Assembly: GCA_043799475.1 (NCBI GenBank)
Contig: JAZDNR010000014.1
Coordinates: 1-39,378 of the forward strand
From: Parcubacteria group bacterium
GTDB taxonomy: Bacteria; Patescibacteriota; JAUYIX01
Direction of reading: 5' to 3'
DNA: 39,378 nucleotides
Shown here one piece after another: positions 1-29,548 of the stretch; position 1 is the stretch's first letter, and every line of letters starts with the position of its first letter. Position numbers and translations under genes: made by a program. The notes under the pieces were generated by a model. It worked only from the letters and a program-made list of their open reading frames with translations. It had not been told where the DNA came from and ran no database searches.

Positions 1-23
1 AGAGTGCCCGAGTCAAGCTCGGG
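1..23 (-). repeat. Repeat module R0 (truncated by window edge)
   Basis: + sense: box remnant AGAGTG, then hairpin CCCGAG-tcaag-CTCGGG (7-23), followed by CCGAAAC. Confidence 0.5.
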
Positions 24-63
24 CCGAAACTTGAATGAAATTTGCATGGCATTACAACACTGA

Positions 64-108
64 ACTTCAAGCTCTTGCGAGCGGCCCGAACGCCCCGGGC
101 GGTCGGGC
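64..108 (-). repeat. Repeat module R1
   Basis: + sense: box ACTTCAAGCTCTTGCGAGCG (64-83; small hairpin GCTC-ttgc-GAGC), then hairpin GCCCGAACGCC-ccg-GGCGGTCGGGC (84-108), then TCAGAAC. Confidence 0.7.
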
Positions 109-153
109 TCAGAACTCAGATGCAGGACACATCGCCACAGCAAACGGTGCTTG

Positions 154-194
154 AGTGTAAGCCTTGTGGGCGCCCGACCGTAATGACGGTCAGG
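154..194 (-). repeat. Repeat module R2
   Basis: + sense: box AGTGTAAGCCTTGTGGGCG (154-172; GCCT-tgt-GGGC, a paired change relative to GCTC/GAGC), then CCCGACCGT-aatg-ACGGTCAGG (173-194), then CCGTTAC. Confidence 0.7.
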
Positions 195-264
195 CCGTTA
201 CAATGCACAAATCGACCTTATCGAAGTCAGCTGCGCTTGACTACAGGTTCGTAAAGAACCGCAG

Positions 265-292
265 AGGTTAGCAGCTCCGTTGGATTTGTCAA
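265..292 (-). promoter_or_regulatory. Sigma70-like promoter of TU1
   Basis: Minus strand: TTGACA (292-287), 16-nt spacer, TAACCT (270-265), followed by ctGCGGTTCTTT. The -35 directly abuts the T-tract of terminator 294-327. Confidence 0.6.
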
Positions 293-293
293 T

Positions 294-327
294 AAAAAAG
301 CCCGAACACCTTGAGAGATGTTCGGGC
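294..327 (-). terminator. Intrinsic terminator of TU2
   Basis: Minus strand: hairpin GCCCGAACA..TGTTCGGGC (300-327) followed by T6 (294-299). It differs by 1 nt from the terminator at 2101-2135. Confidence 0.75.
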
Positions 328-371
328 CTGGGCCATAGCCTACCTGAGGCCACCTTACTTGACCCTACCCT

Positions 372-422
372 AGTGCAATCTCAAGTTCTCACTTGAGCGC
401 CCGGTCGGGTTGTCCGGCCGGG
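372..422 (-). repeat. Repeat module R3
   Basis: + sense: box AGTGCAATCTCAAGTTCTCACTTGAGCG (372-399; CTCAAG-ttctca-CTTGAG), then CCCGGTCGG-gttgt-CCGGCCGGG (400-422), then CCGATAG. Confidence 0.65.
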
Positions 423-467
423 CCGATAGCATAGTGTACGCCACCCCACACAAGTCTGCGTGACTTC

Positions 468-509
468 AGTTCATACTCTTATGAGCGGGCCGAACACAAG
501 TGCTCGGCC
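468..509 (-). repeat. Repeat module R4
   Basis: + sense: box AGTTCATACTCTTATGAGCG (468-487; TCATA-ctct-TATGA), then GGCCGA..TCGGCC hairpin (488-509), then CCGAAAT. Confidence 0.65.
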
Positions 510-554
510 CCGAAATCTAGGTTTGCCGTAATCAAGAGGGCCTGGCGAAACTCA

Positions 555-591
555 AGTGCATTCTCTTGCGAGCGCCCGAGCATAGCTCGGG
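555..591 (-). repeat. Repeat module R5
   Basis: + sense: box AGTGCATTCTCTTGCGAGCG (555-574), then CCCGAGC-ata-GCTCGGG (575-591), then CAGATAC. Confidence 0.65.
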
Positions 592-636
592 CAGATACCT
601 TAGTGGAGTGTAACTCACGCCACTCAACCCCAGCGT

Positions 637-683
637 AGTGCATACCCTTTTGAGCGCCGAGCGCAGCCATGGCGGCCGGCCGG
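637..683 (-). repeat. Repeat module R6 (second hairpin degenerate)
   Basis: + sense: box AGTGCATACCCTTTTGAGCG (637-656), followed by a GC-rich palindromic run (657-683) instead of a clean hairpin. Confidence 0.45.
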
Positions 684-749
684 AAATATGCCCGAGCCGA
701 CACAAACATGCCGAGCACTACCTGACCAAATGTTCTTAAGGAACTCGGA

Positions 750-778
750 AGCATAAACGGCATTACCGCGCCTGTCAA
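750..778 (-). promoter_or_regulatory. Sigma70-like promoter of TU2
   Basis: Minus strand: TTGACA (778-773), 17-nt spacer, TATGCT (755-750), then tCCGAGTTCCTT. Confidence 0.6.
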
Positions 779-783
779 TAAAA

Positions 784-2099
784 TGTCCTGTAAAAGCTAG
801 ATTGTCAGGGCTCGGTAAAAGCAAGAATGTCAGGGTGTTATTAATCCTTAAATCTCACCCATGGCAACTAAGCAAACACAAAAACCGGACTACCTCTATA
901 GAGAAGAGGTAATCCGTCTCTGGCAGCGCAAACAGATCCCAATGCAGCGAGCACAAGAGTTACTGGATTGTAGCGAGCGCCATGTCTATCGGCTACAAGA
1001 CATGCTCGAGCAGCGCGGCACGTTGCGCTACCAATCACATCCTGCCTGGAACCGTACTCCGGCAGACTTGGAAGAAATCGTCTGTCGTAAAATTCGTGAG
1101 AATCCAGTCCGTAAAAACCAACACATAGCTGACCTGCTCGCAGAAGATGGTTTTGCGACTAACCGTGCCACGGTCCGTAATATCCGGATCCGCAATCATC
1201 TTAGGCAGGACCAGATCACACGGACAGCCTATGAGCGCTTTGAGCGTGAGCGAGTTGGTGAGTTGATCATGCAAGACACCTCTACCCATCACTGGGTAGC
1301 GGAATTACCAAAGCTCAAGCTCATCGCAAACCTGGATGATCACTCCCGGCTCATTCCCTTTGCACGCTTCTTTTGGCATGACGGCACGTGGCAGAATATG
1401 CTCGCGATCCGCTCAGTACTCGAGCGGTATGGCTTATTTGAGACCTTTTTTGTCGATCGGGCAGGACATTTCTCCGGACAAGATCGGTTGCTTATGGCCT
1501 CCTCGCGTATCACTCGAGGCGAAGATGAGCGCGTCCAAATTCCGCGAGCGCTCGCCGAGGCGCAGGTTACCTTATCTAAGGCGACTGCCTATCATCCTGA
1601 GTCTAAGGGCAAGATCGAGCGCTGGTTTGGGTTTGCACAAGGTCGCTTGCCCCACGATCTGCATGCGAGCACTCTTGCGGCTGCCAATACCCAACTAGCC
1701 GCCTGGGTCAGGTGGTACAACACGAAGCATATTAATGCTGAGACGAAGCAAATTCCCCTGGTACGCTTCCGTCAGGCGATGCGTGAGGGACGTAGTGCTT
1801 TTGCTCCGCTTAAACCACGCTTACCACTCGACGATATCTTCGCCTTTAGGGCAGAGCGCTTGGTCCGTAAAGACAACACCTTCTCCTATGGTGGCAAGAC
1901 GTACCACTTACAGCACGTGGGCGGTGAGCTAATGTATAAAACCTGCGAGCTACGCATCCGGCCAACTGCAATCCGCGTGTGGTACCGTGGCAATTACATT
2001 ACGTCCGTCCCATTCCAAGGACCCTTTGACCGCCCGATCGACTAACACTACTGACATCAAGCTTTTACAAAAGACTGACATTCTAGCGTTTACGTAACA
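784..2099 (+). mobile_element. IS481-family insertion sequence (about 1.3 kb)
   Basis: Terminal inverted repeats: TGTCCTGTAAAAGCTAGATTGTCAG (784-808) against the reverse complement of 2075-2099, TGTTACGTAAACGCTAGAATGTCAG (20/25 identical). A second subterminal copy lies at each end (814-833; 2051-2069). Direct repeat TAAAA flanks both sides (779-783, 2100-2104). There is a single DDE transposase ORF. Confidence 0.8.
861..2045 (+). CDS. IS481-family DDE transposase (N-terminal HTH plus rve integrase core)
   Basis: 394-aa ORF. rve-like catalytic region: DTSTHHW ... FFVDRAGHF ... HPESKGKIERWF. The N-terminal region is HTH-like. It is enclosed by the inverted repeats. Confidence 0.85.
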   Translation: MATKQTQKPDYLYREEVIRLWQRKQIPMQRAQELLDCSERHVYRLQDMLEQRGTLRYQSHPAWNRTPADLEEIVCRKIRENPVRKNQHIADLLAEDGFATNRATVRNIRIRNHLRQDQITRTAYERFERERVGELIMQDTSTHHWVAELPKLKLIANLDDHSRLIPFARFFWHDGTWQNMLAIRSVLERYGLFETFFVDRAGHFSGQDRLLMASSRITRGEDERVQIPRALAEAQVTLSKATAYHPESKGKIERWFGFAQGRLPHDLHASTLAAANTQLAAWVRWYNTKHINAETKQIPLVRFRQAMREGRSAFAPLKPRLPLDDIFAFRAERLVRKDNTFSYGGKTYHLQHVGGELMYKTCELRIRPTAIRVWYRGNYITSVPFQGPFDRPID

Positions 2100-2100
2100 T

Positions 2101-2135
2101 AAAAAAAGCCCGAACACCATGAGAGATGTTCGGGC
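2101..2135 (-). terminator. Intrinsic terminator of the helicase gene
   Basis: Minus strand: hairpin GCCCGAACA..TGTTCGGGC (2108-2135) followed by T7 (2101-2107), 76 nt downstream of the stop codon. Confidence 0.75.
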
Positions 2136-2210
2136 GAGCACTGGACCTGACGCGGTTGTGCAGCACGCTACGTCAGCGCGCTATGGTACGCAGTACCGCA
2201 ATCTCAAAAC

Positions 2211-4058
2211 CTACTTGGCCTTGAGCATCTTGATCGTCTCGGTCACCGCCTCGTCCATGCTCCGCAGAGGGAACATATACGAAGGCTTGAGCCACTCCGG
2301 CAACGCGCCGAGGAGGAACCGATGAAACACGCGGCTCACGAAGATCGTGACGCCCAGGTCCTCGCCCGATCGGATGTTCCGACCGCGGACCTGCAACGCC
2401 TCGTTCATCGCGCGCCACTGCCAACGAGCCCAGGCGCCGTTCTTGCTAAAGCGTCGCACCTCAAACTGCGCCTCGGGTGAGTCCAACGGCGGATAGCCCG
2501 GCCGCAGAAAGAAGATGCATGGCGCGATCTGTCGCGGCAAGTCGACTCCCTGTCCGTACTGCGCCGAGGTCCCGATGAGTACAGTTCCGAAGCCGCTCTT
2601 GAATTGTTCCGCCACCTGTCGTGCCGGCACACCCTCTCCGAGTGCACCGTAAGTGATGGCATCCAGCTCAATGTCCCGGGCGGCGTGTTCCATAAAGAAC
2701 TTGCGCTCCGTCTCAGACTGAACCACGACGAGCGACCGGTTGCCGGCCTCTCCCATCTCCTTGGCTGCCTTGGCGATCATGCGCAGTGCCTTGTGCACCG
2801 CCCACTTTCGTTTGTCGGGCAGCTTGTCGGAGGTGTTGGGTCCGTCGCGCAACAAGTAGACCCGGGTGTTCTCCGACGGAAATGGCGAGCCCAACTGGAC
2901 AAAATGTCCCTTGAGTCCCGTCTCGTAGCCGAGAATTGCCGGATCGCCGACCGTCGCCGAGTAGGCGATGAACTTCTTGCCCACTGCCTTCTTGATGAGC
3001 GGAGCCACGTAGTATGGCTTGATCACCAGGAAGTAGCGCGCCTTCTTCTTGGTCCCCTTGAATCCTACGTCGTTCTTCTGGAAGTAACTACACACGACGT
3101 AGTTGAGCGGGTTGTAGATCTCATTCTCCAAAGAGAACTCGAGGGACTTGATCATCCGCGGAATGCCGCGGGTCAAGTTCTCGAGGGTCTTGATGGTCTC
3201 ACGGTCGCCCACTGGATCGAGCTTGCCTGACGCGATCGCGGAGCGTACATGCCCTTCGATCTTGTCAGCGTCAAACTTGGCCAGCATCGCGATCATGATC
3301 TCCACCTCTGTGTCTTGCACCAGTGCTGGTTTGGACGACGGATGTCTACGACAGATCTGGACCAGTAGCCGGCGGAACTCATTGAGGAGCTTGGCCTGCT
3401 TGCGGTCGAACTGACGCAGGACGTAGGCGCACTTGGTAAGATGGAAGTCTGTGACGGTGTACTCGAAGATGCGCCGTGCGATCGACGCCAGCTGATGCAC
3501 TTCGTCCACTACTACGAGGGAGGGGTCAAGAGCACGCCAGCGGTGATCGAACGTCCTGTTCATCAAGAAGAACGCTGTGGTACAACCGATGATGGCCTTG
3601 GCCGCCTCCGCCTCCCTACGTAAACGAAACTTGTTCCAGAGGTAGGCGCAGGGAGTTACGCCCGGCTCCTGAGTCATGCCAGTTTCCTGGTCCACACGGT
3701 GCGGGCAGTCGAGCGAATAGCAGGGAGACTCCTGGGCGTCGATGTTGGGGACACCCCGATCCTCATAGTAGAGGCAGGGGTTATCGGACCGCCCAGTGAG
3801 CGGCTCGAGTTGCGGGTGCATGGCGACGAGCTGGCCGACCAACTGCTTGGTGGGAGTCGTATAGAAGTTGGGACCAAGACTGTTGGCTTGGCAGGCGAGC
3901 AGGCCGGTCACGCCGGCAACGGTTTTGCCGGTGCCCGGTGGGCCCTCGAGGATGACTGAGTTGTACTGGCTGAACGGATCGATCATCTGATTCTGTTGCG
4001 GACGCTTTTCGGCAAACGGAAAACTCACCTCGAGCGTCTTTTTGTCCGAGATAGCCAT
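2211..4058 (-). CDS. XPD/Rad3/DinG-family SF2 helicase with a four-cysteine putative 4Fe-4S insert
   Basis: 615 aa. Walker A GPPGTGKT, motif II VVDEVH, SAT, GTSAQYGQGVDLP and QVRGRNIRSGEDLG. Four Cys lie between motifs I and II (NPC..SPCYSLDC..TPC). RBS AAAGGAG is 4 nt before the ATG. Confidence 0.85.
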   Translation of the reverse strand: MAISDKKTLEVSFPFAEKRPQQNQMIDPFSQYNSVILEGPPGTGKTVAGVTGLLACQANSLGPNFYTTPTKQLVGQLVAMHPQLEPLTGRSDNPCLYYEDRGVPNIDAQESPCYSLDCPHRVDQETGMTQEPGVTPCAYLWNKFRLRREAEAAKAIIGCTTAFFLMNRTFDHRWRALDPSLVVVDEVHQLASIARRIFEYTVTDFHLTKCAYVLRQFDRKQAKLLNEFRRLLVQICRRHPSSKPALVQDTEVEIMIAMLAKFDADKIEGHVRSAIASGKLDPVGDRETIKTLENLTRGIPRMIKSLEFSLENEIYNPLNYVVCSYFQKNDVGFKGTKKKARYFLVIKPYYVAPLIKKAVGKKFIAYSATVGDPAILGYETGLKGHFVQLGSPFPSENTRVYLLRDGPNTSDKLPDKRKWAVHKALRMIAKAAKEMGEAGNRSLVVVQSETERKFFMEHAARDIELDAITYGALGEGVPARQVAEQFKSGFGTVLIGTSAQYGQGVDLPRQIAPCIFFLRPGYPPLDSPEAQFEVRRFSKNGAWARWQWRAMNEALQVRGRNIRSGEDLGVTIFVSRVFHRFLLGALPEWLKPSYMFPLRSMDEAVTETIKMLKAK

Positions 4059-4150
4059 GGTTCTCCTTTCTTGGCTGTGGTTTGCAGCCTAGGTTCAGAT
4101 TGACAACGAGCGCGTCTTGAGCGGATTTCAAGTCGTTTCAAGAACCGCGC

Positions 4151-4179
4151 AGCCTAGTCGAAGTGTGCAATTTTGTCAA
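4151..4179 (-). promoter_or_regulatory. Sigma70-like promoter of the helicase gene
   Basis: Minus strand: TTGACA (4179-4174), 17-nt spacer, TAGGCT (4156-4151), then gcGCGGTTCTTG. The predicted 5' UTR is about 86 nt. Confidence 0.65.
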
Positions 4180-4182
4180 TAT

Positions 4183-4212
4183 AAAAAGGGGAGCAGATGT
4201 TCTCTGTTCCCC
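4183..4212 (-). terminator. Intrinsic terminator of TU3
   Basis: Minus strand: hairpin GGGGAACAGA..TCTGCTCCCC (4188-4212) followed by TTTTT, then directly ATATTGACA (the next -35). Confidence 0.65.
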
Positions 4213-4256
4213 CGGTACTGCGTCCTAACGTATTCGACTGTGAGATGGCGTGCTAA

Positions 4257-4299
4257 ACCTTAAGCTCTTACGAGCATGGAGAACGATTACTCGTTCTCC
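4257..4299 (-). repeat. Repeat module R7
   Basis: + sense: box ACCTTAAGCTCTTACGAGCA (4257-4276; GCTC-ttac-GAGC), then GGAGAACGA-ttac-TCGTTCTCC (4278-4299), then CCTGGGC. Confidence 0.7.
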
Positions 4300-4359
4300 C
4301 CTGGGCTGTACTCGAGTTGAATGCGCCTTAGAAAACTCTGCGACAACTCGCTTAACTTT

Positions 4360-4406
4360 ACTGCAAGCTCTTGTGGAGCGGGAGGCGCCACGACCGAGAC
4401 GCCTCC
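4360..4406 (-). repeat. Repeat module R8
   Basis: + sense: box ACTGCAAGCTCTTGTGGAGCG (4360-4380; GCTC-ttgtg-GAGC), then GGAGGCG-12 nt loop-CGCCTCC (4381-4406). Confidence 0.7.
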
Positions 4407-4461
4407 TCGCGACATTAAAGAACTTGAGAATACGACGTCTGACCCAACTTATGAGAACCGA

Positions 4462-4502
4462 AGTTCAAGCTCCATTGAGAGCGCGGGGGCAACGAACCCC
4501 CG
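4462..4502 (-). repeat. Repeat module R9
   Basis: + sense: box AGTTCAAGCTCCATTGAGAGCG (4462-4483; GCTC-cattga-GAGC), then CGGGGG-caacgaa-CCCCCG (4484-4502). Confidence 0.7.
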
Positions 4503-4577
4503 CAGGTCAACTCTGCGTGGGTTCGCGCTGCGGCGAAATGCTGCTGTACACCCTGGTACATGTCTAAAGGACCAAAT

Positions 4578-4605
4578 AAGATAGCATCTATCGCATTAAA
4601 GTCAA
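4578..4605 (-). promoter_or_regulatory. Sigma70-like promoter of TU3
   Basis: Minus strand: TTGACT (4605-4600, overlapping the T-tract of the upstream terminator), 16-nt spacer, TATCTT (4583-4578), then atTTGGTCCTTT. Confidence 0.5.
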
Positions 4606-4635
4606 AAAAGAGAGGAGCAGAACGACATCTGCTCC
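4604..4635 (-). terminator. Intrinsic terminator of TU4b
   Basis: Minus strand: hairpin GGAGCAGA-tgtcgt-TCTGCTCC (4614-4635), then TCTC and T6 (4604-4609). Confidence 0.65.
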
Positions 4636-4791
4636 CCGAGTACTGCGCGACACGACTGCACAGCTTTGTACGCCCTGCCCCAGTGCAAGCTCTTATGGAG
4701 CGGGAGAACAAATTTGTTCTCCCCGTTACTCGGACTTGCAAAACGGCGCCTTACGCGAAAGCACCGTGCCTAAGAACATGTCCACGAGGGA
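4636..4791 (-). ncRNA. Non-coding unit TU4b (single module R10)
   Basis: Promoter 4798-4825. About 69 nt of leader, then module R10, a 46-nt unique segment and terminator 4604-4635. Confidence 0.5.
4682..4722 (-). repeat. Repeat module R10
   Basis: + sense: box AGTGCAAGCTCTTATGGAGCG (4682-4702; GCTC-ttatg-GAGC), then GGAGAACA-aatt-TGTTCTCC (4703-4722), then CCGTTAC. Confidence 0.7.
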
Positions 4792-4797
4792 CCAGAG

Positions 4798-4825
4798 AGA
4801 CTAGCACACCATCAAAAAAGTTCAA
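4798..4825 (-). promoter_or_regulatory. Weaker member of the same promoter family (TU4b)
   Basis: Minus strand: TTGAAC (4825-4820), 16-nt spacer, TAGTCT (4803-4798), then ctCTGGTCCCTC. Confidence 0.4.
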
Positions 4826-4826
4826 G

Positions 4827-4971
4827 ATAAAAGTGCGGGAGCAAATAGATCTCTGCCCCCGCCCACACCCGACCGTAGTGGCCCGCAAATTACCGAAGCC
4901 TTCTGTGGCCCACCCCGGTGAACGACACCCCACCTCATATCCCACAAGGGACTTTTACATCCATTGGCGAA
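4827..4971 (-). ncRNA. Non-coding unit TU4a (one degenerate module, weak terminator)
   Basis: Promoter 4978-5006. A hairpin at 4837-4860 is followed on the minus strand by GCACTTTTATCTT. No RBS-preceded ORF. Confidence 0.35.
4891..4920 (-). repeat. Possible degenerate 15th repeat module
   Basis: + sense: TACCGAAGCCTTCTGTGGC resembles the R2 box GTGTAAGCCTTGTGGGCG (GCC-ttctgt-GGC). It is followed only by a weak CACC/GGTG pairing. Confidence 0.25.
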
Positions 4972-4977
4972 CCGTGC

Positions 4978-5006
4978 AGGCTAATGTACGTTGGTCGATC
5001 GGTCAA
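4978..5006 (-). promoter_or_regulatory. Sigma70-like promoter of TU4a
   Basis: Minus strand: TTGACC (5006-5001), 17-nt spacer, TAGCCT (4983-4978), then gCACGGTTCGCC. The -35 abuts the T-tract of terminator 5008-5042. Confidence 0.6.
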
Positions 5007-5007
5007 T

Positions 5008-5042
5008 AAAAAAGGCGGTTCTCATTGCAAATGAGAACCGCC
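5008..5042 (-). terminator. Intrinsic terminator of TU5
   Basis: Minus strand: 13-bp hairpin GGCGGTTCTCATT-tgc-AATGAGAACCGCC (5014-5042) followed by T6 (5008-5013). Confidence 0.8.
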
Positions 5043-5325
5043 GCTGCCTGGCCCTACGCTAGAGGACACCACTGAACCTCTGACTACCCCACTGTAGTAC
5101 AAACCCATTACGGCGGGCGGTCCTAAGGTGAGACCGCCCTCGTCACCTTAGCGGGCAGGACTCAACGCAACGTCAGTTCAAGACCTTACGGTCGCGGGCA
5201 GTCCCGGATGAACCACCCGCCGGCACTGTATTTGACTCAGAACCGCCAAACGGAACTTGACTGTAAGCTTTTGCGAGCGAGCCCCCATTGAGAGGGCTCC
5301 GACACCACAGTTTGATTAGGAACAG
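5043..5325 (-). ncRNA. Longer non-coding unit TU5 (module R11 near the 5' end plus about 217 nt of structured RNA)
   Basis: Lies between the terminator of the 235-aa gene (5366-5397) and terminator 5008-5042. The 5' end is uncertain because no good promoter was found. It contains mutually complementary segments at 5115-5151. Confidence 0.4.
5260..5299 (-). repeat. Repeat module R11
   Basis: + sense: box ACTGTAAGCTTTTGCGAGCG (5260-5279; GCTT-ttgc-GAGC with a T-G pair), then GAGCCC-9 nt loop-GGGCTC (5279-5299). Confidence 0.65.
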
Positions 5326-5365
5326 TGAAACTAACCGGACACAACCTCAGACCTTTTGGGCAAAG

Positions 5366-5397
5366 AAAAAGGGGCAGTCTCAGAATGAGCCTGCCCC
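5366..5397 (-). terminator. Intrinsic terminator of the 235-aa protein gene
   Basis: Minus strand: hairpin GGGGCAG..CTGCCCC (5371-5397) followed by TTTTTCTTTG, 43 nt after the stop codon. Confidence 0.7.
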
Positions 5398-5439
5398 CGA
5401 CGAACGATCAGACGTGACGAAGATGAGATGACGAGATGG

Positions 5440-6147
5440 TTACGCCGTGGCCTCCGCCAGAGGTGCGGTGTTGAGGAGACGGTTGTACTCCTCCCACTCC
5501 TCGAGCTTGGCTGGACGCAGCTCATCAACCTCGTAAGTGCCGTAATCGCCACCGCAGTTCGGGCGAAAGGGCCCGAAACCGCCGAGACGCCCGGCCTCCA
5601 TGAGGATGTCGCAGATCTTCTCGAACGACGTGTAGTTCACGTCGAGATCTGCGAATCCGTCGACCACCCAACTCTCAGGAAAGAGCGGGCGCACGATAGG
5701 ACAGGGCTGACCCTTGCCCATGGAGTTCTTCAATAACCCCTGCTTGAGGTCTGGCTCCCAGGGCGTCGGCCAACCAGCGGGGGTCGGTGCCGGGGTGAAG
5801 CGGAAGTACTTGCCCTTGAGACGGAGGAAGGCGGGTAGGCGTGTCGCATTCGTCGCGCTGGTGAACTTCGCCTTGCCGTCAAACTTGACCTCCTTACCGC
5901 CCTGACGGAAGCTGGCCCAGACCCAGTCCTTGGGAATGACGAACAACGACGAGACCGGATGCAGGATGACCTTCTTGGCGCACCTCTCGCGCAGTGGCGT
6001 GACAGTGTCCTTCTGGCCCTTCTTCTTGTCGCTGAAGAAGGTATCCCAGATGTCCTGCGTGCGGTGGGGATCCTCGTAGATCGGCATGAGGCCGATGAGG
6101 CGGAAGTAGTGAAGCACCCAGTTTGTCCTTTTGCTGCCGATAGGCAT
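5440..6147 (-). CDS. Hypothetical 235-aa protein, paralog A of the island pair. The glycine-rich C-terminal motif is reminiscent of RAMP proteins.
   Basis: RBS GGAG is 6 nt before the ATG, and the gene has its own promoter and terminator. It aligns with the 194-aa protein at NWVLHYFRLIGL/GWTCHLFTLKGL and at IVRP..W..AGRLGGFGPFR..GDYGTYEVDELRP/IVRP..W..AGSLQGFGSYR..GYHGTFELEEFRP. Confidence 0.75.
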   Translation of the reverse strand: MPIGSKRTNWVLHYFRLIGLMPIYEDPHRTQDIWDTFFSDKKKGQKDTVTPLRERCAKKVILHPVSSLFVIPKDWVWASFRQGGKEVKFDGKAKFTSATNATRLPAFLRLKGKYFRFTPAPTPAGWPTPWEPDLKQGLLKNSMGKGQPCPIVRPLFPESWVVDGFADLDVNYTSFEKICDILMEAGRLGGFGPFRPNCGGDYGTYEVDELRPAKLEEWEEYNRLLNTAPLAEATA

Positions 6148-6246
6148 GACGAACTCCTTGTTCTAGCGTAGCGTTGTTTATGTCCATTTTGAGGGAACAG
6201 CTCACGACGGTGAGGTCTAGAGGCTATTCCGCCAACAAGACCCGCG

Positions 6247-6275
6247 AAGCTAGCAGATCGTCTTTTGGCTGTCAA
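6247..6275 (-). promoter_or_regulatory. Sigma70-like promoter of the 235-aa protein gene
   Basis: Minus strand: TTGACA (6275-6270), 17-nt spacer, TAGCTT (6252-6247), then cGCGGGTCTTGT. Confidence 0.65.
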
Positions 6276-6313
6276 GATTCTGTCCCGATCCTGTGCGATC
6301 CGTTGCGAACATT

Positions 6314-6348
6314 AAAAAATGAGCCAGCTTCTTGTTAGAAGCTGGCTC
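6314..6348 (-). terminator. Intrinsic terminator of the 194-aa protein gene
   Basis: Minus strand: 12-bp hairpin GAGCCAGCTTCT-aaca-AGAAGCTGGCTC (6321-6348) followed by T6 (6314-6319). Confidence 0.8.
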
Positions 6349-6426
6349 GTGCACCCTTGTGGATTACGCAGTAGGACACGACACGGTGCCTAGCTGAAGT
6401 GTAGACTGCTAGCGCAGCGAGTTCGA

Positions 6427-7011
6427 CTAGACCGGTCGGAACTCCTCGAGCTCAAAAGTGCCGTGATAGCCGTCCTTCTCAGCTCGATAGCTGCCGAAAC
6501 CCTGCAGCGACCCTGCGTCGTTGATCAGCTCGGTCACGAACTCCTCGACGTCCGGTGCTAGGCAGATGTGGCCCGAGGCCGTCCAGGGCAGTTCGATACT
6601 GGGCCGCACGATCCCGCACTTGGCCGACTTCTTGCTGTCGTACCCCTGGCGAATGTCAGCTCGCCAACCATTGCAGTTCAACTGGAGGCCCTGCCCGGAG
6701 AGGTGCAGGAGGTGACGTAAGCGCACGTACTTCTTGTTGCGTGTGTCATCCTTGGGCTTGATGGTGACGATGCGGCCGTCTGGTAGCACGCGACCCGCGG
6801 CTTGTGCGGCGAGAGCGGCCCAGAACATTTCGCGCGGGATGTGTGGATTGCCCTGATGGTCGGCGTGCAGCTTGTGACGCGCAAGGTCCTCGGGCTCGTC
6901 GCCGCGCTGGTAGCCCGGCGCACCCTTCTTTTGCATGAGGATGCTCTCGAGTCCCTTGAGGGTGAACAAGTGACACGTCCAGCCAGGTGGACGAGGCTTG
7001 AGGTGGTTCAT
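6427..7011 (-). CDS. Hypothetical 194-aa protein, paralog B of the island pair
   Basis: RBS AAAGGAG is upstream of the ATG, and the gene has its own promoter and terminator. It shares N-terminal W..H.F.L.GL and C-terminal IVRP / GFG..R / G.(Y/H)GT(Y/F)E(V/L).E(L/F)RP motifs with the 235-aa protein. Confidence 0.75.
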   Translation of the reverse strand: MNHLKPRPPGWTCHLFTLKGLESILMQKKGAPGYQRGDEPEDLARHKLHADHQGNPHIPREMFWAALAAQAAGRVLPDGRIVTIKPKDDTRNKKYVRLRHLLHLSGQGLQLNCNGWRADIRQGYDSKKSAKCGIVRPSIELPWTASGHICLAPDVEEFVTELINDAGSLQGFGSYRAEKDGYHGTFELEEFRPV

Positions 7012-7115
7012 GAGTACATACTCCTTTCGGGAGTGGGTTGATGAACGAGTTTTTGAAACGTGATGTTGAGGTGCAGCATCTCTCAGAGCTTTTGTTCAGC
7101 CCAAAAAGACCGCGC

Positions 7116-7144
7116 AAGCTAGCACGGCTTAATCGCATTGTCAA
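7116..7144 (-). promoter_or_regulatory. Sigma70-like promoter of the 194-aa protein gene
   Basis: Minus strand: TTGACA (7144-7139), 17-nt spacer, TAGCTT (7121-7116), then gcGCGGTCTTTT. Confidence 0.65.
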
Positions 7145-7155
7145 CTCCCGCAACT

Positions 7156-7191
7156 AAAAAAGAGGGAGACGTAACTTTGTTCACGTCTCCC
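7156..7191 (-). terminator. Intrinsic terminator of TU6
   Basis: Minus strand: hairpin GGGAGACGT..ACGTCTCCC (7164-7191), then CT and T6 (7156-7161). Confidence 0.7.
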
Positions 7192-7236
7192 CATGGACAC
7201 CACATGACTACGCCACATCTCGCGCCACCCAACCTG

Positions 7237-7283
7237 ACTGTAAGCTTTTCTAGAGCGAGAGCAGTTCTCGGGTAGAACTGCTC
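7237..7283 (-). repeat. Repeat module R12
   Basis: + sense: box ACTGTAAGCTTTTCTAGAGCG (7237-7257; GCTT-ttcta-GAGC), then GAGCAGTTCT-cgggt-AGAACTGCTC (7259-7283). Confidence 0.7.
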
Positions 7284-7350
7284 AATCAGGGTCTGACTCG
7301 AAAACACTAGACGTAAGGACAGGTGAGTGGACGACACTCCGCCCGACCAA

Positions 7351-7390
7351 AGTACAAGCTCGAAAGAGCTGGGAGAACAGTTGTTCTCCC
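7351..7390 (-). repeat. Repeat module R13
   Basis: + sense: box AGTACAAGCTCGAAAGAGCT (7351-7370; AGCTC-gaaa-GAGCT, stem extended by a paired change), then GGGAGAAC-agtt-GTTCTCCC (7371-7390), then CTGGGCG. Confidence 0.7.
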
Positions 7391-7464
7391 CTGGGCGCCA
7401 CATTACTCTGAACTGGCACGCAACGGCATTGTGTACTTAAGAACAAGTCCTCGATGGACACGGC

Positions 7465-7493
7465 AAACTAACATATGATCTTGTAACTGAAAA
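7465..7493 (-). promoter_or_regulatory. Degenerate member of the island promoter family (TU6)
   Basis: Minus strand: TTTTCA (7493-7488), 17-nt spacer, TAGTTT (7470-7465), then gCCGTGTCCATC. Compare TAGCTTgcGCGGTCTT in the other promoters. Confidence 0.35.
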
Positions 7494-7502
7494 GGCTGCG
7501 TG

Positions 7503-8198
7503 TCAGCCGACCGGATTTTTGCCATCGTGCCGCTGCAGGTTACGTACAAACTGATCCAAGATCAAAAAGACTACCGCCATCATGAGCAGGAGAATGCTGA
7601 TCTTGGTACTGGAGTTGGAGATGGCCACAAAATCGTAGAGGCCGTGCAGTCCAATCCCTAGTAGCAAACCAAATAGCACCAGCCAGGCTCCGCCCCGCCG
7701 AGCAAATTTTCCTAGTCCCATAAAGTAGCCGATAATCCCAGCAGCGAGAGCGTGTAGCAAGGTCGCAGTCACAAAACGCAAGGGCAGGATCGAGGCGCCC
7801 TCACCCAGCACTACTAAGATGTTCTCCACAGTGGCAAAGCCGAGTGCGGCCACCACCATGTACATCACGCCATCCATGCGTTCATCAAAAACGCGATGGT
7901 GATAAACACTCAAAAAAACTATGGCAAATTTGGCGAGTTCCTCGATGGGTGCTATCACCGCAAAAGCTCCGATGATTGCCGCGCGACTAAAACCCGGTGC
8001 AGAATAATGCAAATACAAATCGATCGTGTACTCAATAAAAAGGGCCGGCAATGTCACGAGCATCCCCAGTAAAAACACGCGCCATAAAAAACGCCTAGGC
8101 TCGGGGTGTTTGCCGTCGGCCCGCAGATACCACCACAACCAAAAGAGCCCAGGTAGCAGTGCGAGGACAATGTTACGTAAGTCAACGAGGAAGTTCAC
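7503..8198 (-). CDS. PrsW-family intramembrane protease
   Basis: 231-aa polytopic membrane protein with EELAKF, FATVEN, HALAAG and HGLYDF motifs. GTG start. Confidence 0.8.
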   Translation of the reverse strand: MNFLVDLRNIVLALLPGLFWLWWYLRADGKHPEPRRFLWRVFLLGMLVTLPALFIEYTIDLYLHYSAPGFSRAAIIGAFAVIAPIEELAKFAIVFLSVYHHRVFDERMDGVMYMVVAALGFATVENILVVLGEGASILPLRFVTATLLHALAAGIIGYFMGLGKFARRGGAWLVLFGLLLGIGLHGLYDFVAISNSSTKISILLLMMAVVFLILDQFVRNLQRHDGKNPVG

Positions 8199-19332: not shown

Positions 19333-19821
19333 TTAACGCTTTGCTTCGAGGGTCATTATGCGTTCCTCGTGTCGTGCAAGGGCTGAGCGATGTGCCGCAT
19401 GTTCGGCGTCATAGGTCTTGATTTTACTAATAACAAGATTGTCTACGCTTGTAATAAGCTTATCTATTTTTGACTCTGTACGTTTACCAGTTTCTTTAAC
19501 TTCAACCATGTCGTGTTCTAGGTTTATTAACCTGCCATCCATCTGCTCAAATCTTAAATCAATCTGCACAAATCTTTCATCAATCTTCTCAAACCTGGCA
19601 TCAACCTGCTCAAACCTGGCATCAACCTGCTCAAACCTGGCATCAACCTGCTCAAATCTTAAATCAATCTGCACAAATCTTTTATCAACCTTCTCAAGCC
19701 TTGCATCAATCTGCACAAATCTGGCATCAATCCGGCCGAACTTTTTATCGGTCTTTACGAAATATTTTTCGTGGCGATCAATCGCTGCTGCAATCCCTTG
19801 TAAAGTTGGCTTAGTTTTCAT
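19333..19821 (-). CDS. Hypothetical coiled-coil protein with about ten heptad repeats (x-h-D-x-R-F-x)
   Basis: 162 aa. Run RIDARFV QIDARLE KVDKRFV QIDLRFE QVDARFE x3 KIDERFV QIDLRFE QMDGRLI. Confidence 0.7.
   Translation of the reverse strand: MKTKPTLQGIAAAIDRHEKYFVKTDKKFGRIDARFVQIDARLEKVDKRFVQIDLRFEQVDARFEQVDARFEQVDARFEKIDERFVQIDLRFEQMDGRLINLEHDMVEVKETGKRTESKIDKLITSVDNLVISKIKTYDAEHAAHRSALARHEERIMTLEAKR
19588..19650 (-). repeat. Three perfect tandem 21-bp repeats inside the coiled-coil gene
   Basis: CTCAAACCTGGCATCAACCTG at 19588-19608, 19609-19629 and 19630-19650. Diverged copies flank them across about 19546-19755. Confidence 0.9.
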
Positions 19822-28612: not shown

Positions 28613-28654
28613 ACAGGTCACCAGCCTGAACACTAAATGTGCTCATAAAAATGT

Positions 28655-28774
28655 TTAGGGCCCTATCGTGATGCGATGGGCCCTTAGTCGAGGATGCTCC
28701 CCCTCGACAGGGATTGTGGCTCGGCGTTTTAGCGCCAGAGCCGCGGATGATCCTGACGCTGCAGGGGTCCGCAT
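28655..28774 (-). CDS. Possible 39-aa small ORF
   Basis: SD AAAGGAG lies 8 nt before the ATG (28774). The stop is embedded in a 10-bp hairpin (28658-28683) followed by TAAACATTTTTAT. No recognisable similarity. Confidence 0.2.
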   Translation of the reverse strand: MRTPAASGSSAALALKRRATIPVEGEHPRLRAHRITIGP

Positions 28775-29235
28775 ATGTTCTACTCCTTTCTCCCTGCGCG
28801 ATCTTCGCGATTCTATCTATACGCGCCAACGGGATGAATCTGATTGAAGCCGGTGTGTGAAGCCGGCCACATAAGGTTGCGGCGTCCGCAGTCTGTCTCT
28901 GTCAAAGATCGACCGGTGACGAGGTGCGACTGTCAGACGGTAAGCCCCGAGTGACCTAGACCTCTTTGAGGTTGTGGGACAAAGTTGTCCCTGGTATGTC
29001 TGGTACACCATGGGCCTACGAGGAGCGCTTCGCACATCTTGTTATTAAGTGGACGACGTGCGGACGCCGCGTGAACGCGCGACATGCCGTGGCTCGCTAC
29101 GTGAACGGGCGGCTGTCCCGATACTTGCGCACGGAACACCTCCTGATCTTAACACCGACGAAATAAAGGATCGGACGTGTGGAGAGAACACCCCGGGGAG
29201 CACCATGGTTGGCGCTGTTCCCAGAGGATTCAAGG

Positions 29236-29264
29236 AACTTACCAGTTAATCCCGGTCCTGTCAA
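29236..29264 (-). promoter_or_regulatory. Sigma70-like promoter inside the ORF-poor gap
   Basis: Minus strand: TTGACA (29264-29259), 17-nt spacer, TAAGTT (29241-29236). Confidence 0.45.
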
Positions 29265-29336
29265 GACTATGTGCAGACTGGGCGCAGCGGGGCTTTTTGG
29301 ACCATTTGAGGCCCTTTATCGCAAAGATTTGGGGCC

Positions 29337-29493
29337 AAAATAAAGATGGGGGTTGAAAGACGAGTCCAACCCCCGGTGTAGTCAGGGAATGACCGCCTGA
29401 CCACTTATGTAAGCGGCCCGTTCCCCATGCCTTTAAAACGCCGGGACACGGTAATCGCCTCTCTAGCATAAGGAACGGGCACTCACGAGCAAC
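29337..29493 (-). ncRNA. Candidate small RNA of about 150 nt (unknown family)
   Basis: Promoter at 29500-29527. A long-range pairing GCCCGTTCC/GGAACGGGC, and hairpin GTCAGG..CCTGAC. Terminator GGGGGTTG..CAACCCCC followed by ATCTTTATTTTG (29337-29374). Confidence 0.4.
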
Positions 29494-29499
29494 GCCGGC

Positions 29500-29527
29500 A
29501 TGCTAGCAAAACTGTTACCCTTGACAA
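29500..29527 (-). promoter_or_regulatory. Promoter of the candidate sRNA
   Basis: Minus strand: TTGTCA (29527-29522), 16-nt spacer, TAGCAT (29505-29500). Its -35 overlaps the -35 of the divergent plus-strand promoter. Confidence 0.45.
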
Positions 29528-29548
29528 AGTGCCGAGATTTGCTACACT
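29521..29548 (+). promoter_or_regulatory. Promoter of the Zn-ribbon gene
   Basis: TTGACA (29521-29526), 16-nt spacer, TACACT (29543-29548). Confidence 0.5.

What the first reader, a model, noticed from the sequence alone, without database searches (positions are those of the whole stretch)
1..745. Two-hairpin repeat with covarying stems and exactly 45-nt unique inter-repeat segments
Seen: each module, written in + sense, is a 19-28 nt box (consensus A-S-T-K-Y-AAGCTC-ttgc-GAGCG). The box itself forms a small hairpin and is followed directly by a second GC-rich hairpin of 6-11 bp. The box is conserved, but paired positions change together. Small hairpin variants are GCTC/GAGC, GCCT/GGGC, GCTT/GAGC, AGCTC/GAGCT, CTCAAG/CTTGAG and TCATA/TATGA. 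The second hairpin has a different sequence in every copy. The distance from the end of hairpin 2 to the next box is 45 nt for R1->R2 (109-153), R3->R4 (423-467), R4->R5 (510-554) and R5->R6 (592-636). This holds even though hairpin 2 varies from 17 to 25 nt and the period varies from 82 to 96 nt. R0->R1 is 40 nt. The first 7 nt of each segment are semi-conserved (CCGAAAC, CCGAAAT, CCGATAG, CAGATAC, TCAGAAC), and the remaining 38 nt show no mutual similarity by eye. Inference: conserved structure with drifting sequence indicates selection at the RNA (or ssDNA) level. Fixed-length unique segments resemble spacers or guides measured by a protein ruler. Unlike CRISPR, the repeats are not homogenised, so repeat-identity-based CRISPR finders would not call this.
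Basis: partly seen in the sequence, partly recalled or inferred. Interest (0 to 1): 0.88.

Follow-up and report, generated by a model that had tools for sequence, protein, structure and literature searches.

The report
Guide-RNA array of a VIPR system
The hairpin repeats are the punctuation of a minus-strand array of VIPR guide RNAs (vrRNAs), whose "unique 45-nt segments" are nine 5-nt code words read one-by-one by a Cas7-like Vipr protein encoded 5 kb away; it is a new, uncharacterised member (in a candidate-phyla-radiation bacterium) of an RNA-guided DNA-recognition system first described in 2026.

Summary
In detail: 16 two-hairpin modules (7 in 1-745; others at 4264-5298 and 7244-7390), with spacings of exactly 45, 45, 45, 45 and 40 nt. 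The contig is a whole 39,378-bp Parcubacteria MAG contig, so the array is cut by the contig end.

The RNA sense is the minus strand. There the "unique" segments are 8-13 pentamers of form NN(R)GY, in fixed register with the GC-rich hairpin (phase-free test z=13.4, 0/2000 shuffles). So 45 nt is 9 pentamers and 40 nt is 8.

Two paralogous RAMP proteins lie alongside (5440-6147 and 6427-7011, minus strand). Their profile matches the solved SUSP1 Vipr protein (PDB 36pp, E=2e-9), and the model resembles Cas7/Csm3. An XPD/DinG-family helicase (2211-4058) sits between the arrays.

This matches VIPR systems (bioRxiv 10.64898/2026.04.26.720920): Vipr, an accessory gene, and vrRNAs made of pentanucleotide repeats plus a structured tail. 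At least 24 vrRNA units lie in nine transcription units.

The strand, the claimed lack of similarity among segments and the spacer analogy were wrong.

No targets were found. Unusual features are hairpin-punctuated polycistronic arrays, a relaxed motif and two Vipr paralogs.

The parts
1..292 (-). Transcription unit T2. Putative promoter: TTGACA 292-287, 16 nt, TAACCT 270-265. A small 5' hairpin at 260-246 is followed by at least 3 vrRNA units. The unit runs off the contig end.
   Evidence: Sequence reading; 5' hairpin fold; pentamer tracts 245-195, 160-109 and 70-24, each with 5-6 GY in phase 0
7..23 (-). Module M0: GC-rich hairpin hpA. Its partner small hairpin (1-5) is cut by the contig end.
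71..108 (-). Module M1: hpA 108-84 (3' hairpin of unit T2u2) abutting hpB 82-71 (GCUC-GCAA-GAGC, 5' hairpin of unit T2u3)
   Evidence: z=-2.5
161..194 (-). Module M2: hpA 194-173 and hpB 171-161 (GCC-CACAA-GGC)
   Evidence: z=-3.2
294..778 (-). Transcription unit T1. Promoter 778-750 (TTGACA-17-TATGCT), 5' hairpin 744-732, five vrRNA units, intrinsic terminator 329-298 plus T-run.
   Evidence: Promoter and terminator scan; tracts 731-684, 644-592, 562-510, 474-423, 379-328
380..422 (-). Module M3: hpA 422-400 and an extended hpB 397-380 (7 bp)
   Evidence: z=-4.4
475..509 (-). Module M4: hpA 509-488 and hpB 486-475 (GCUC-AUAA-GAGU, with a G.U pair only possible in minus sense)
   Evidence: z=-4.6
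563..591 (-). Module M5: hpA 591-575 and hpB 572-563
   Evidence: z=-2.6
645..683 (-). Module M6: degenerate hpA 683-657 and hpB 654-645 (CUC-AAAA-GGG)
   Evidence: z=+0.65; the weakest copy
784..2098 (+). Insertion sequence; not part of the system. It has an rve-type transposase ORF at 861-2045, imperfect terminal inverted repeats and a TAAAA target duplication (779-783 / 2099-2103). It sits between the T0 terminator and the T1 promoter.
   Evidence: (I1/I2)
2102..2225 (-). vrRNA unit T0 in the helicase 3' UTR. Its 5' hairpin (2225-2203) overlaps the helicase stop codon. The tract is 2202-2136 (9 of 13 pentamers with GY in one phase). The terminator is 2135-2108.
2211..4058 (-). Accessory (vap-like) gene: XPD/DinG-family SF2 helicase, 615 aa, with four invariant Cys (95, 113, 118, 137).
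   Evidence: Pfam DEAD+Helicase_C_2; PADLOC typeIV_DinG E=3e-40; alignment A6; AF2 pLDDT 90 with Foldseek hits to DinG/XPD at TM 0.66-0.70 and CasDinG at 0.57-0.61
4181..4605 (-). Transcription unit T6. Promoter 4605-4578; four vrRNA units; modules at 4502-4469, 4406-4367 and 4299-4264; terminator about 4212-4188.
4606..4825 (-). Transcription unit T5. Putative promoter TTGAAC 4825-4820 / TAGTCT 4803-4798; 5' hairpin 4792-4780; two units (module 4722-4689); terminator 4637-4612.
4827..5006 (-). Transcription unit T4. Putative promoter TTGACC 5006-5001 / TAGCCT 4983-4978; 1-2 units. The last tract (4897-4863) is canonical YNNGG (TTCGG..TGCGG..TACGG TCGGG TGTGG). Terminator 4862-4835.
5008..5366 (-). 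Transcription unit T3 downstream of vipr-B. Four units; modules at 5298-5267, 5219-5182 and 5139-5104; terminator 5042-5014.
5440..6147 (-). vipr-B: 235-aa RAMP (Vipr homologue)
   Evidence: Profile vs PDB 36pp_D 'SUSP1 Vipr protein' E=2e-9; AF2 model with top Foldseek hits Csm3/Cas7; 4448 relatives in the 50%-clustered library
6314..6426 (-). vrRNA unit T8 directly after vipr-A, ending in terminator 6348-6321
   Evidence: 7 of 15 pentamers with GY in one phase
6427..7011 (-). vipr-A: 194-aa second Vipr paralogue
   Evidence: hhalign vs Vipr alignment A4: probability 99.2%, E=3e-19
7152..7467 (-). Transcription unit T7 upstream of vipr-A. 5' hairpin 7459-7447; three units; modules at 7390-7357 and 7283-7244; terminator 7191-7164.

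Best explanation
Region 1-745 is part of the guide-RNA (vrRNA) arrays of a chromosomal VIPR system in a Parcubacteria (CPR) bacterium. The whole locus spans about 1-7470, on the minus strand, and is interrupted by an IS element.

Each vrRNA unit reads, 5' to 3':
- UUG;
- a conserved first pentamer GMACU;
- 8-13 pentamers of form NN(R)GY;
- a final NNCGG;

By homology with the characterised SUSP1 system, one Vipr protomer binds each pentamer. It buries the (R)GY bases and displays the two variable bases. A filament of 9-13 protomers then reads double-stranded DNA through a gapped code (NN, skip one). That is why segment lengths are exact multiples of 5, such as 45 and 40 nt.

The XPD/DinG-type helicase between the arrays is the accessory effector. 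It probably unwinds or clears the bound target, much as CasDinG does in type IV-A CRISPR.

Shown here: the anatomy, the periodicity, Vipr homology and fold, the helicase family, and synteny in relatives. Inferred: transcription and processing between the two hairpins, filament assembly, the decoding rule, and a defence or regulatory role.
For: 1. Pentamer code. Tracts aligned to the GC hairpin give position 4 = G 62%, position 5 = Y 85%, position 3 = R 64% over 191 pentamers. The summed best-phase GY count is 105 against 56.7+-3.6 in shuffles (z=13.4, 0/2000). Thirteen of 19 tracts share phase 0. The + sense gives only z=3.3. Lag-5/10/15 autocorrelation has z=2.6-3.8 at lags 5 and 10 in both arrays, with none in flanking genes.

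2. Vipr protein. The profile of the 235-aa protein and its homologues hits only PDB 36pp 'SUSP1 Vipr protein' (E=2e-9), aligned through the G-loop GxGxWRP / GFGPFRP. The AF2 model resembles Csm3, Cas7-11 and type VII Cas7. A second paralogue scores hhalign 99.2%.

3. Match to the published definition (10.64898/2026.04.26.720920). That definition is a vipr gene, one vap gene, long flanking intergenic regions with ~100-nt vrRNAs of 9-16 pentanucleotide repeats (YNNGG, or the variants NNNGG, YNNNG, NNNNG) followed by a structured 3' tail, with helicases or nucleases as vap genes in types III-V.

4. Strand. There are seven minus-strand intrinsic terminators and sigma-70-like promoters. Minus-sense folds are equal or better in 10 of 13 modules.

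5. Synteny. Homologous Vipr and helicase genes in eight other Patescibacteria loci are flanked by up to 20 tracts with 8-9 of 9 GY-periodic pentamers on the gene strand.

6. G-loop substitution. SUSP1 Asp177, which contacts the first G of GGY, is Pro or Ser here. Trp178 becomes Phe/Tyr and Arg179 is kept. This fits the relaxed first position of the motif.
Against: - No expression data exist for this MAG. Transcription, processing and RNP formation are inferred.
- The motif is degenerate: only about 55% of pentamers carry GY in phase, against near-invariant GGY in SUSP1.
- No target was found. No near-perfect match exists in the contig under any skip rule. Three NNx patterns gave no exact match in IMG/VR and one gave none in JGI metagenomes. 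A contiguous NNN decode gave no BLAST match in phages.
- The Vipr link rests on a profile E-value of 2e-9 plus a generic RAMP fold, and the AF2 model is of moderate quality (pLDDT 72).
- The preprint's supplementary tables were not readable. I cannot say which of the seven types this is, or whether this locus is already listed.
Confidence: 0.88

Rival explanations
1. A TIGR-Tas 'stem-loop' array. In that system, variable palindromic hairpins separate units that carry two 8-12-nt spacers flanked by box C/D-like motifs, and a Nop-domain Tas protein binds them. TIGR-Tas systems are known from CPR bacteria.
For: The TIGR-Tas paper (PMC12045711) describes arrays with variable but consistently palindromic hairpins, found among other places in Patescibacteria. 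Superficially this resembles the variable GC hairpins here.
Against: No Nop-domain protein was found among the 30 ORFs of at least 100 aa scanned, which include all genes next to the arrays. The genes adjacent to the arrays are RAMP/Vipr paralogues and a helicase. The inter-hairpin segments are continuous 5-nt repeats of 40-65 nt, not two 8-12-nt spacers with box C/D pairs.
Confidence: 0.02
2. A decayed or atypical CRISPR array of a type IV-A-like system (Cas7-like protein plus DinG helicase), with diverged repeats and about 45-nt spacers.
For: The helicase's best defence-library match is the type IV-A DinG profile (E=3e-40). The adjacent proteins have a Cas7-like fold.
Against: - No two repeats are alike, and the large hairpin shares no sequence between copies.
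- No cas1, cas2, csf1, csf3 or cas6 was found.
- CRISPR spacers have no 5-nt periodicity, whereas these segments do (z=13.4).
- Many units have their own promoter and terminator.
- The RAMP matches Vipr by sequence, not Csf2.
- The helicase fold is closer to FeS-containing DinG/XPD than to CasDinG.
Confidence: 0.03
3. Ordinary non-guide RNA or DNA repeats. Candidates are a family of tandem regulatory sRNAs, REP/MITE-like palindromic elements, or stacked terminators. In that case the neighbouring RAMP and helicase genes would be coincidental.
For: There is no expression or target evidence. Hairpin-rich intergenic repeats are common. No Rfam family matches.
Against: - The co-occurrence of Vipr homologues, the helicase and GY-periodic tracts is conserved across loci whose helicases are only 45-50% identical.
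- The periodic motif is the one the Vipr family is known to bind.
- The register is fixed relative to the hairpin.
- The large hairpins are not followed by T-runs, except in the last unit of each transcript.
Confidence: 0.05
4. A ribozyme-interspersed vrRNA array, in which the two-hairpin junction is a self-cleaving element, as in the hammerhead-interspersed VIPR arrays.
For: The preprint reports hammerhead-interspersed arrays in types I and V. The + strand shows a CGAAAC-like string next to the large hairpin.
Against: No hammerhead or other ribozyme model matches on either strand, even at E<=10 for 1-900 and E<=1 for 4059-7520. The CUGANGA core is absent. The junction between the two hairpins is only 0-2 nt.
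Confidence: 0.02

Closest known systems
VIPR systems (Vipr RAMP + vap + vrRNAs), bioRxiv 10.64898/2026.04.26.720920 and 10.64898/2026.04.26.720927; prototype Escherichia phage SUSP1 (type II)
   Same: - A small RAMP homologous to Vipr.
- A minimal locus with one DNA-acting accessory gene.
- No CRISPR array or adaptation genes.
- Flanking arrays of ~70-110-nt RNAs made of 8-13 pentanucleotide repeats, with a conserved G-pyrimidine core and variable positions.
- Each tract followed by a structured 3' element.
- Unit lengths that are multiples of 5.
   Different: - The host is a CPR bacterial chromosome in a housekeeping neighbourhood, not a phage or prophage.
- The motif is relaxed to NN(R)GY, i.e. 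the 'YNNNG'-like variant. This is consistent with loss of the Asp that reads the first G.
- There are two diverged Vipr paralogues.
- The accessory gene is an FeS-type XPD/DinG helicase.
- There are at least 24 vrRNA units.
- Several units are strung together on one transcript. They are separated only by a sequence-variable GC hairpin abutting a small conserved hairpin, rather than an invariant pseudoknotted tail, own promoters, staggered overlap or hammerheads.
Orthologous VIPR loci of other Patescibacteria fetched here (L001, L002/L003, L004/L005, L006, L007, L008)
   Same: Same gene set and order (Vipr, sometimes two paralogues; arrays; helicase; arrays). Same GY-periodic pentamer tracts on the gene strand.
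   Different: In those loci each vrRNA has its own TTGACA promoter and T-run terminator. In L006 the terminator/tail hairpin is sequence-conserved between units. The window instead has polycistronic, hairpin-punctuated arrays with a non-conserved 3' hairpin.
Type IV-A CRISPR-Cas (Csf complex + CasDinG)
   Same: A Cas7-like filament on a guide RNA plus a DinG-family helicase and no nuclease. The likely outcome is DNA binding or interference without cleavage. The helicase matches the type IV DinG profile.
   Different: There are no repeats or spacers and no Csf1, Csf3 or Cas6. The guide is a gapped pentamer code. The helicase keeps four Cys and is structurally nearer DinG/XPD. The statement that CasDinG has only a vestigial FeS domain comes from my own knowledge.
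TIGR-Tas stem-loop arrays (PMC12045711)
   Same: Arrays of short guides punctuated by variable palindromic hairpins, also found in CPR bacteria.
   Different: The protein differs (Nop domain versus RAMP). The guide layout differs (two 8-12-nt spacers with box C/D versus a pentamer tract). No Tas gene is present here.

Membership tests
VIPR system | A Vipr protein: a small stand-alone RAMP with RRM core, G-loop and thumb, homologous to the SUSP1 Vipr family | tested here: met
   Profile hit to PDB 36pp_D with E=2e-9, aligned through the G-loop. AF2 model's top Foldseek hits are Csm3/Cas7. Second paralogue: hhalign 99.2%.
VIPR system | vrRNAs made of about 9-16 tandem pentanucleotide repeats, with conserved GGY (or a related consensus) alternating with variable bases | tested here: met
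   8-13 pentamers per unit. Position weights: G 62% at position 4, Y 85% at position 5, R 64% at position 3. z=13.4 against shuffles. The consensus is relaxed (NN(R)GY); some tracts are canonical YNNGG or NNGGY (4897-4863, 379-328).
VIPR system | The repeat tract is followed by a structured 3' tail | tested here: met
   Every tract ends at a GC-rich hairpin or an intrinsic terminator, in fixed 5-nt register. Unlike SUSP1, the hairpin sequence is not invariant.
VIPR system | A minimal locus: vipr plus a DNA-acting accessory gene (vap), long flanking non-coding regions, no CRISPR array, no cas1/cas2 | tested here: met
   The helicase is at 2211-4058. No CRISPR-like identical repeats. No cas genes among 30 ORFs scanned.
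VIPR system | vrRNAs are expressed as ~100-nt RNAs and co-purify with Vipr | not testable with these tools
   Only promoter- and terminator-like sites could be scanned.
VIPR system | Variable NN bases specify dsDNA targets with a 1-nt skip; natural targets lie in phages or mobile elements | tested here: inconclusive
   No match better than chance within the contig for any of seven rules. No exact NNx hits in IMG/VR (three vrRNAs) or JGI metagenomes (one). CPR phages are poorly sampled and only exact matches could be scanned.
CRISPR-Cas type IV-A | An array of near-identical direct repeats separating acquired spacers | tested here: not met
   Repeat finders report only 69-82% identical 22-nt boxes, and no family for the large hairpin.
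CRISPR-Cas type IV-A | A multisubunit Csf complex (Csf1, Csf2/Cas7, Csf3/Cas5, Cas6) | tested here: not met
   PADLOC and NCBIfam give no Cas hit for either RAMP, or for homologues of vipr-B in three other loci. Only two Vipr paralogues are present.
CRISPR-Cas type IV-A | A CasDinG helicase | tested here: inconclusive
   The typeIV_DinG profile scores E=3e-40 over the full length. However, Foldseek ranks E. coli DinG and XPD above CasDinG, and four Cys are invariant.
TIGR-Tas | A Nop-domain Tas protein next to the array | tested here: not met
   No Nop hit in any scanned ORF.
TIGR-Tas | [quoted passage not shown] | tested here: not met
   The tracts are uninterrupted pentamer repeats of 40-65 nt.
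Hammerhead-interspersed vrRNA arrays / known self-cleaving ribozymes | A match to a ribozyme covariance model between units | tested here: not met
   Rfam at gathering threshold on the whole window, and by E-value on 1-900 and 4059-7520, gave no ribozyme.

The most novel reading that the evidence does not exclude
The locus may be an evolutionary and mechanistic intermediate between VIPR and class 1 (type IV-like) CRISPR effectors. The ancestral RAMP has duplicated and diverged. One paralogue would form the pentamer-reading filament. The other would recognise the conserved small hairpin and first pentamer, acting as a Cas5/Cas6-like cap or processing enzyme. Guides would be delivered as a polycistronic array punctuated by hairpins, like repeats. 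A DinG-family helicase would be the effector.

A linked possibility follows from loss of the Asp that reads the first G. That loss may free a third base per pentamer, giving a different decoding rule from the published NN + 1-skip.
Probability: 0.15. Interest if true: 0.85.

Novelty: new member of a known kind. Interest (0 to 1): 0.55.

Why it matters
VIPR was first described in 2026 and has been characterised only in phage-borne type II systems. This locus shows a cellular version with many guides (at least 24) in a candidate-phyla-radiation bacterium. The gene set is syntenic in relatives whose helicases are only 45-50% identical.

Three features bear directly on the proposed VIPR-to-CRISPR transition:
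- a duplicated RAMP;
- a DinG/XPD helicase partner, as in type IV-A CRISPR;
- guide units strung on one transcript and separated by structured, covarying hairpins.

It also provides a natural experiment on the code. A G-loop substitution coincides with a relaxed repeat motif.

For genome annotation, it shows that long 'empty' intergenic regions in CPR genomes can be dense guide-RNA arrays. CRISPR finders and Rfam both miss them.

Tried and rejected
1. Rfam, at gathering threshold and by E-value, on both strands: only a tRNA at 30060-30134. This rejects hammerheads, other ribozymes and known sRNAs.
2. MAFFT alignment of the modules failed on the variable hairpin. I replaced it with a hand-registered pseudo-alignment.
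3. Global Fourier power at period 5 was not significant, because hairpin lengths reset the phase. I replaced it with lag autocorrelation and a phase-free per-tract test.
4. Close relatives: exact-protein look-up failed. Helicase scans of genome contigs and metagenome contigs found none. The Vipr alignment was too divergent for the search for related loci.
Almost all were single hits in unrelated taxa, and none of the 120 matches had a GY-periodic tract downstream. So strain-to-strain turnover of the segments could not be examined.
6. Spacer-style BLAST of 1-780 against phages and plasmids: no match.
7. Target decoding: no self-target in the contig under seven rules. NNx exact scans and a contiguous NNN BLAST were all negative.
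8. I considered integron attC sites, REP/BIME elements, nut-like boxA/boxB sites, tRNA-like units and promoter-per-repeat (type II-C-like) arrays, by reading the sequence. None fits the conserved flanks, the 5-nt register or the gene context.
9. TIGR-Tas was considered after a literature hit, and rejected for lack of a Nop protein and box C/D layout.
Full report
**What is there**

The window is a complete 39,378-bp contig of a 'Parcubacteria group bacterium' MAG. It has about 53% GC and carries housekeeping genes: HisRS, ValRS, the SUF system, MraW, TsaD and a CCA-adding enzyme.

In + sense each is a box (A-S-T-K-Y-AAGCTC-ttgc-GAGCG) that forms a small hairpin, followed at once by a GC-rich hairpin of unique sequence, then CCGAAAC-like bases. 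The gaps from the end of the large hairpin to the next box are 40, 45, 45, 45 and 45 nt, as claimed.

The same module recurs outside the finding. Seven copies lie between 4264 and 5298, and two between 7244 and 7390. That makes 16 copies, counting the one truncated at position 1.

**Structure**

Fourteen of 15 complete modules fold into the same two abutting hairpins, with z-scores from -2.1 to -6.1. I built a hand-registered alignment of the outer 5 bp of the large hairpin and the 4 bp of the small one. On it, 93.7% of cells pair against 63.3% in shuffles (0/500).

All five large-hairpin pairs show changes on both sides. Two of four small-hairpin pairs do, for example GCUC/GAGC to GACC/GGUC. 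The large-hairpin register came from each copy's own fold. The result therefore shows conserved structure without conserved sequence, rather than classical covariation in homologous columns.

**Strand**

The minus strand is the RNA sense, on five grounds:
- Minus-sense folds are as good or better in 10 of 13 modules, owing to G.U pairs.
- The small hairpin loops read GCAA or GUAA (GNRA) in minus sense.
- The scan tool finds five clear intrinsic terminators on the minus strand (329-298, 2135-2108, 4637-4612, 4862-4835, 5042-5014) and promoters at 778-750 and 4605-4578.
- Two further terminators (about 5400-5367 and about 4212-4188) and several TTGACA-16/17-TAnnnT promoters are visible in the sequence.
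- All three protein genes of the locus are on the minus strand.

**The 'unique' segments are a pentamer code**

Read in minus sense and right-justified to the large hairpin, the segments resolve into 5-nt words: TGAGT TTCGC CAGGC ... ACGGC ... TTCGG. Over 191 pentamers, position 4 is G in 62%, position 5 is a pyrimidine in 85%, and position 3 is a purine in 64%. Positions 1-2 are unbiased.

Three tests support the periodicity:
- A phase-free test sums, over 19 tracts, the GY count in each tract's best phase. It gives 105 against 56.7+-3.6 for shuffles (z=13.4, 0/2000).
- Thirteen of 19 tracts share the same phase relative to the hairpin. The + sense gives only z=3.3.
- GY autocorrelation is raised at lags 5 and 10 in both arrays (z=2.6-3.8), and at lag 15 in the second array (z=3.3; 1.2 in the first). 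It shows no multiple-of-5 pattern in the IS, the helicase, the vipr gene or the rest of the contig.

Hence 45 nt is nine pentamers and 40 nt is eight. The 5' part of the 'box' (AGTGCAA) is the complement of UUG plus a conserved first pentamer, GMACU.

**Associated genes**

The 235-aa ORF at 5440-6147 (minus strand) has no Pfam, NCBIfam or PADLOC match. A profile of it with five homologues hits one PDB sequence: 36pp 'SUSP1 Vipr protein', with E=2e-9 over residues 7-184, including the G-loop.

Its AlphaFold model has pLDDT 72 and pTM 0.71. The best matches are Csm3, Cas7-11 and type VII Cas7. The family is large, with 4448 representatives at E<=1e-3 in the 50%-clustered library.

The 194-aa ORF at 6427-7011 (minus strand) is a second, diverged paralogue (hhalign 99.2%, E=3e-19).

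The 615-aa ORF at 2211-4058 (minus strand), between the arrays, is an XPD/DinG-family helicase:
- Pfam gives DEAD plus Helicase_C_2.
- PADLOC typeIV_DinG scores E=3e-40.
- Four Cys are invariant.
- The AF2 model has pLDDT 90. Foldseek TM-scores are 0.58-0.70 to DinG/XPD (0.66-0.70 for the best) and 0.57-0.61 to CasDinG.

**Identification**

The PDB hit led to two 2026 preprints on VIPR systems. They define VIPR as:
- a Vipr RAMP;
- one accessory 'vap' gene (DNA binders, or nucleases/helicases in types III-V);
- ~100-nt vrRNAs made of 9-16 YNNGG repeats (with variants NNNGG, YNNNG and NNNNG), followed by a structured 3' tail.

Each Vipr protomer binds one repeat, buries GGY and displays NN. The filament reads dsDNA with a one-nucleotide skip and silences transcription. 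The window meets every sequence-level criterion (see the membership test).

SUSP1 Asp177 contacts the first G of GGY. It is Pro in vipr-B and Ser in vipr-A. The stacking Trp178 becomes Phe or Tyr, and Arg179 is retained. This fits the weak conservation of the first position of the motif here. That link is my inference.

**Architecture of the locus (minus strand)**

- T7 array (7467-7152, three units).
- vipr-A.
- T8 (one unit).
- vipr-B.
- T3, T4, T5 and T6 (5366-4181, about 11-12 units).
- The helicase.
- T0, one unit in the helicase 3' UTR, whose 5' hairpin overlaps the stop codon.
- An IS insertion (784-2098, TAAAA duplication).
- T1 (778-294, five units).
- T2 (292-1, at least three units, cut by the contig end).

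That gives at least 24 vrRNA units.

Within a transcript, the units are separated only by the large hairpin followed 0-2 nt later by the small hairpin. The last unit of each transcript uses the intrinsic terminator as its 3' hairpin.

Four of the seven promoter-proximal starts (T1, T2, T5, T7), and also T0, begin with a 4-9 bp, 5-nt-loop hairpin followed by UGU/AUG and pentamers. T3 and T6 do so weakly, and T4 does not. I therefore read the small hairpin as the 5' element of each unit and the large hairpin as its 3' tail. Processing, or at least filament insulation, would occur at their junction. This step is inferred.

**Relatives**

The nearest helicase homologues are only 45-50% identical. 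No close relative exists in the genome or metagenome collections.

In eight loci from other Patescibacteria, the helicase is flanked by the same kind of tracts: up to 20 per locus, with 8-9 of 9 GY in phase, on the gene strand. A Vipr gene was confirmed next to it in all eight. Three of these loci also carry short and long Vipr paralogues.

In those loci each vrRNA has its own promoter and T-run terminator. In L006 the terminator/tail is sequence-conserved.

The polycistronic, hairpin-punctuated layout therefore looks lineage-specific. It is not among the architectures named in the preprint's text (own arrays, staggered, hammerhead-interspersed, single). The preprint's supplementary data could not be read.

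**Targets**

None was found. This is weak evidence either way. Only exact gapped patterns could be scanned, CPR phages are poorly sampled, and the decoding rule for the relaxed motif is unknown.

**Verdict**

The finding is a genuine, non-random structure. It is the vrRNA array of a VIPR system, not CRISPR, TIGR-Tas, a ribozyme array or generic repeats.

It is a new, uncharacterised member of a recently described kind, with some unusual features:
- a chromosomal CPR host;
- two Vipr paralogues;
- an FeS-type DinG/XPD helicase;
- a relaxed motif;
- hairpin-punctuated polycistronic arrays.

Confidence is 0.88 and interest 0.55.

Noticed in passing
window 784-2098: An insertion sequence with an rve-type transposase ORF (861-2045, +), about 40-nt imperfect terminal inverted repeats and a probable 5-bp TAAAA target duplication. 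It has landed exactly between the terminator of vrRNA T0 and the -35 box of array T1. Removing it restores the 'GGGCTTTTTTTATTGACA' terminator-promoter junction seen between other units.
   Followed up: partly
window 294-327 and 2102-2135: Two minus-strand terminator hairpins are 97% identical over 34 nt, although the vrRNA tracts before them differ. This suggests duplication or gene conversion of unit ends.
   Followed up: no
window 7144-7100, 6275-6230, 4179-4135 (minus strand): The promoters of vipr-A, vipr-B and the helicase share TTGACA-17-TAG(C/G)(T/C)T followed by a similar (G)CGCGG(G/T)TCTT(G/T) leader. This may be a common operator or 5'-UTR element. Its function is unknown.
   Followed up: no
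window 6427-7011 (-); L006 3913-4314 and 4557-5273; L007 122-685 and 1100-1885; L008 2540-3091 and 3324-3977: A short (about 133-194 aa) and a long (about 217-261 aa) Vipr paralogue occur side by side in this contig and in three distant relatives. L001, L002 and L004 have one. The preprint counts 670 Vipr proteins in 667 systems, so paired paralogues seem rare in its set.
   Followed up: partly
window 2203-2225 (-): The 5' hairpin of vrRNA T0 (9-bp stem, -11.5 kcal/mol) spans the helicase stop codon. This guide would therefore be made from the helicase mRNA 3' end.
   Followed up: partly
window 2211-4058 (-), residues C95, C113, C118, C137: Four cysteines are invariant across 19 homologues of the helicase. 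The pattern is that of an XPD/DinG-type 4Fe-4S domain. From memory, this differs from the vestigial FeS domain of CasDinG.
   Followed up: partly
L006 170-215, 330-365, 835-870, 990-1025: In this relative every vrRNA ends in a nearly identical long terminator hairpin (GGGCGGGGTTCGTCGGTTCACTCCGA..CCCCGCC + T-run), i.e. an invariant tail. The window's 3' hairpins are all different.
   Followed up: no
window 28613-30059: A 1.4-kb stretch without an ORF of at least 100 aa, next to the only tRNA (30060-30134, -). It shows period-3 and period-6 GY signal (z=4.1 and 3.0) but no period-5 signal. It may be a short or disrupted coding region; it is not a vrRNA array.
   Followed up: no
window 19536-19732: A 21-nt tandem repeat (9.4 copies, 81% matches) inside the coiled-coil-like ORF 19333-19821 (-).
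   Followed up: no
L001 5869-5966 and 7781-7880: Runs of N (masked or scaffold gaps) lie inside the long vrRNA array region of this relative. This is consistent with assemblies breaking in such arrays, as the window's contig does at position 1.
   Followed up: no
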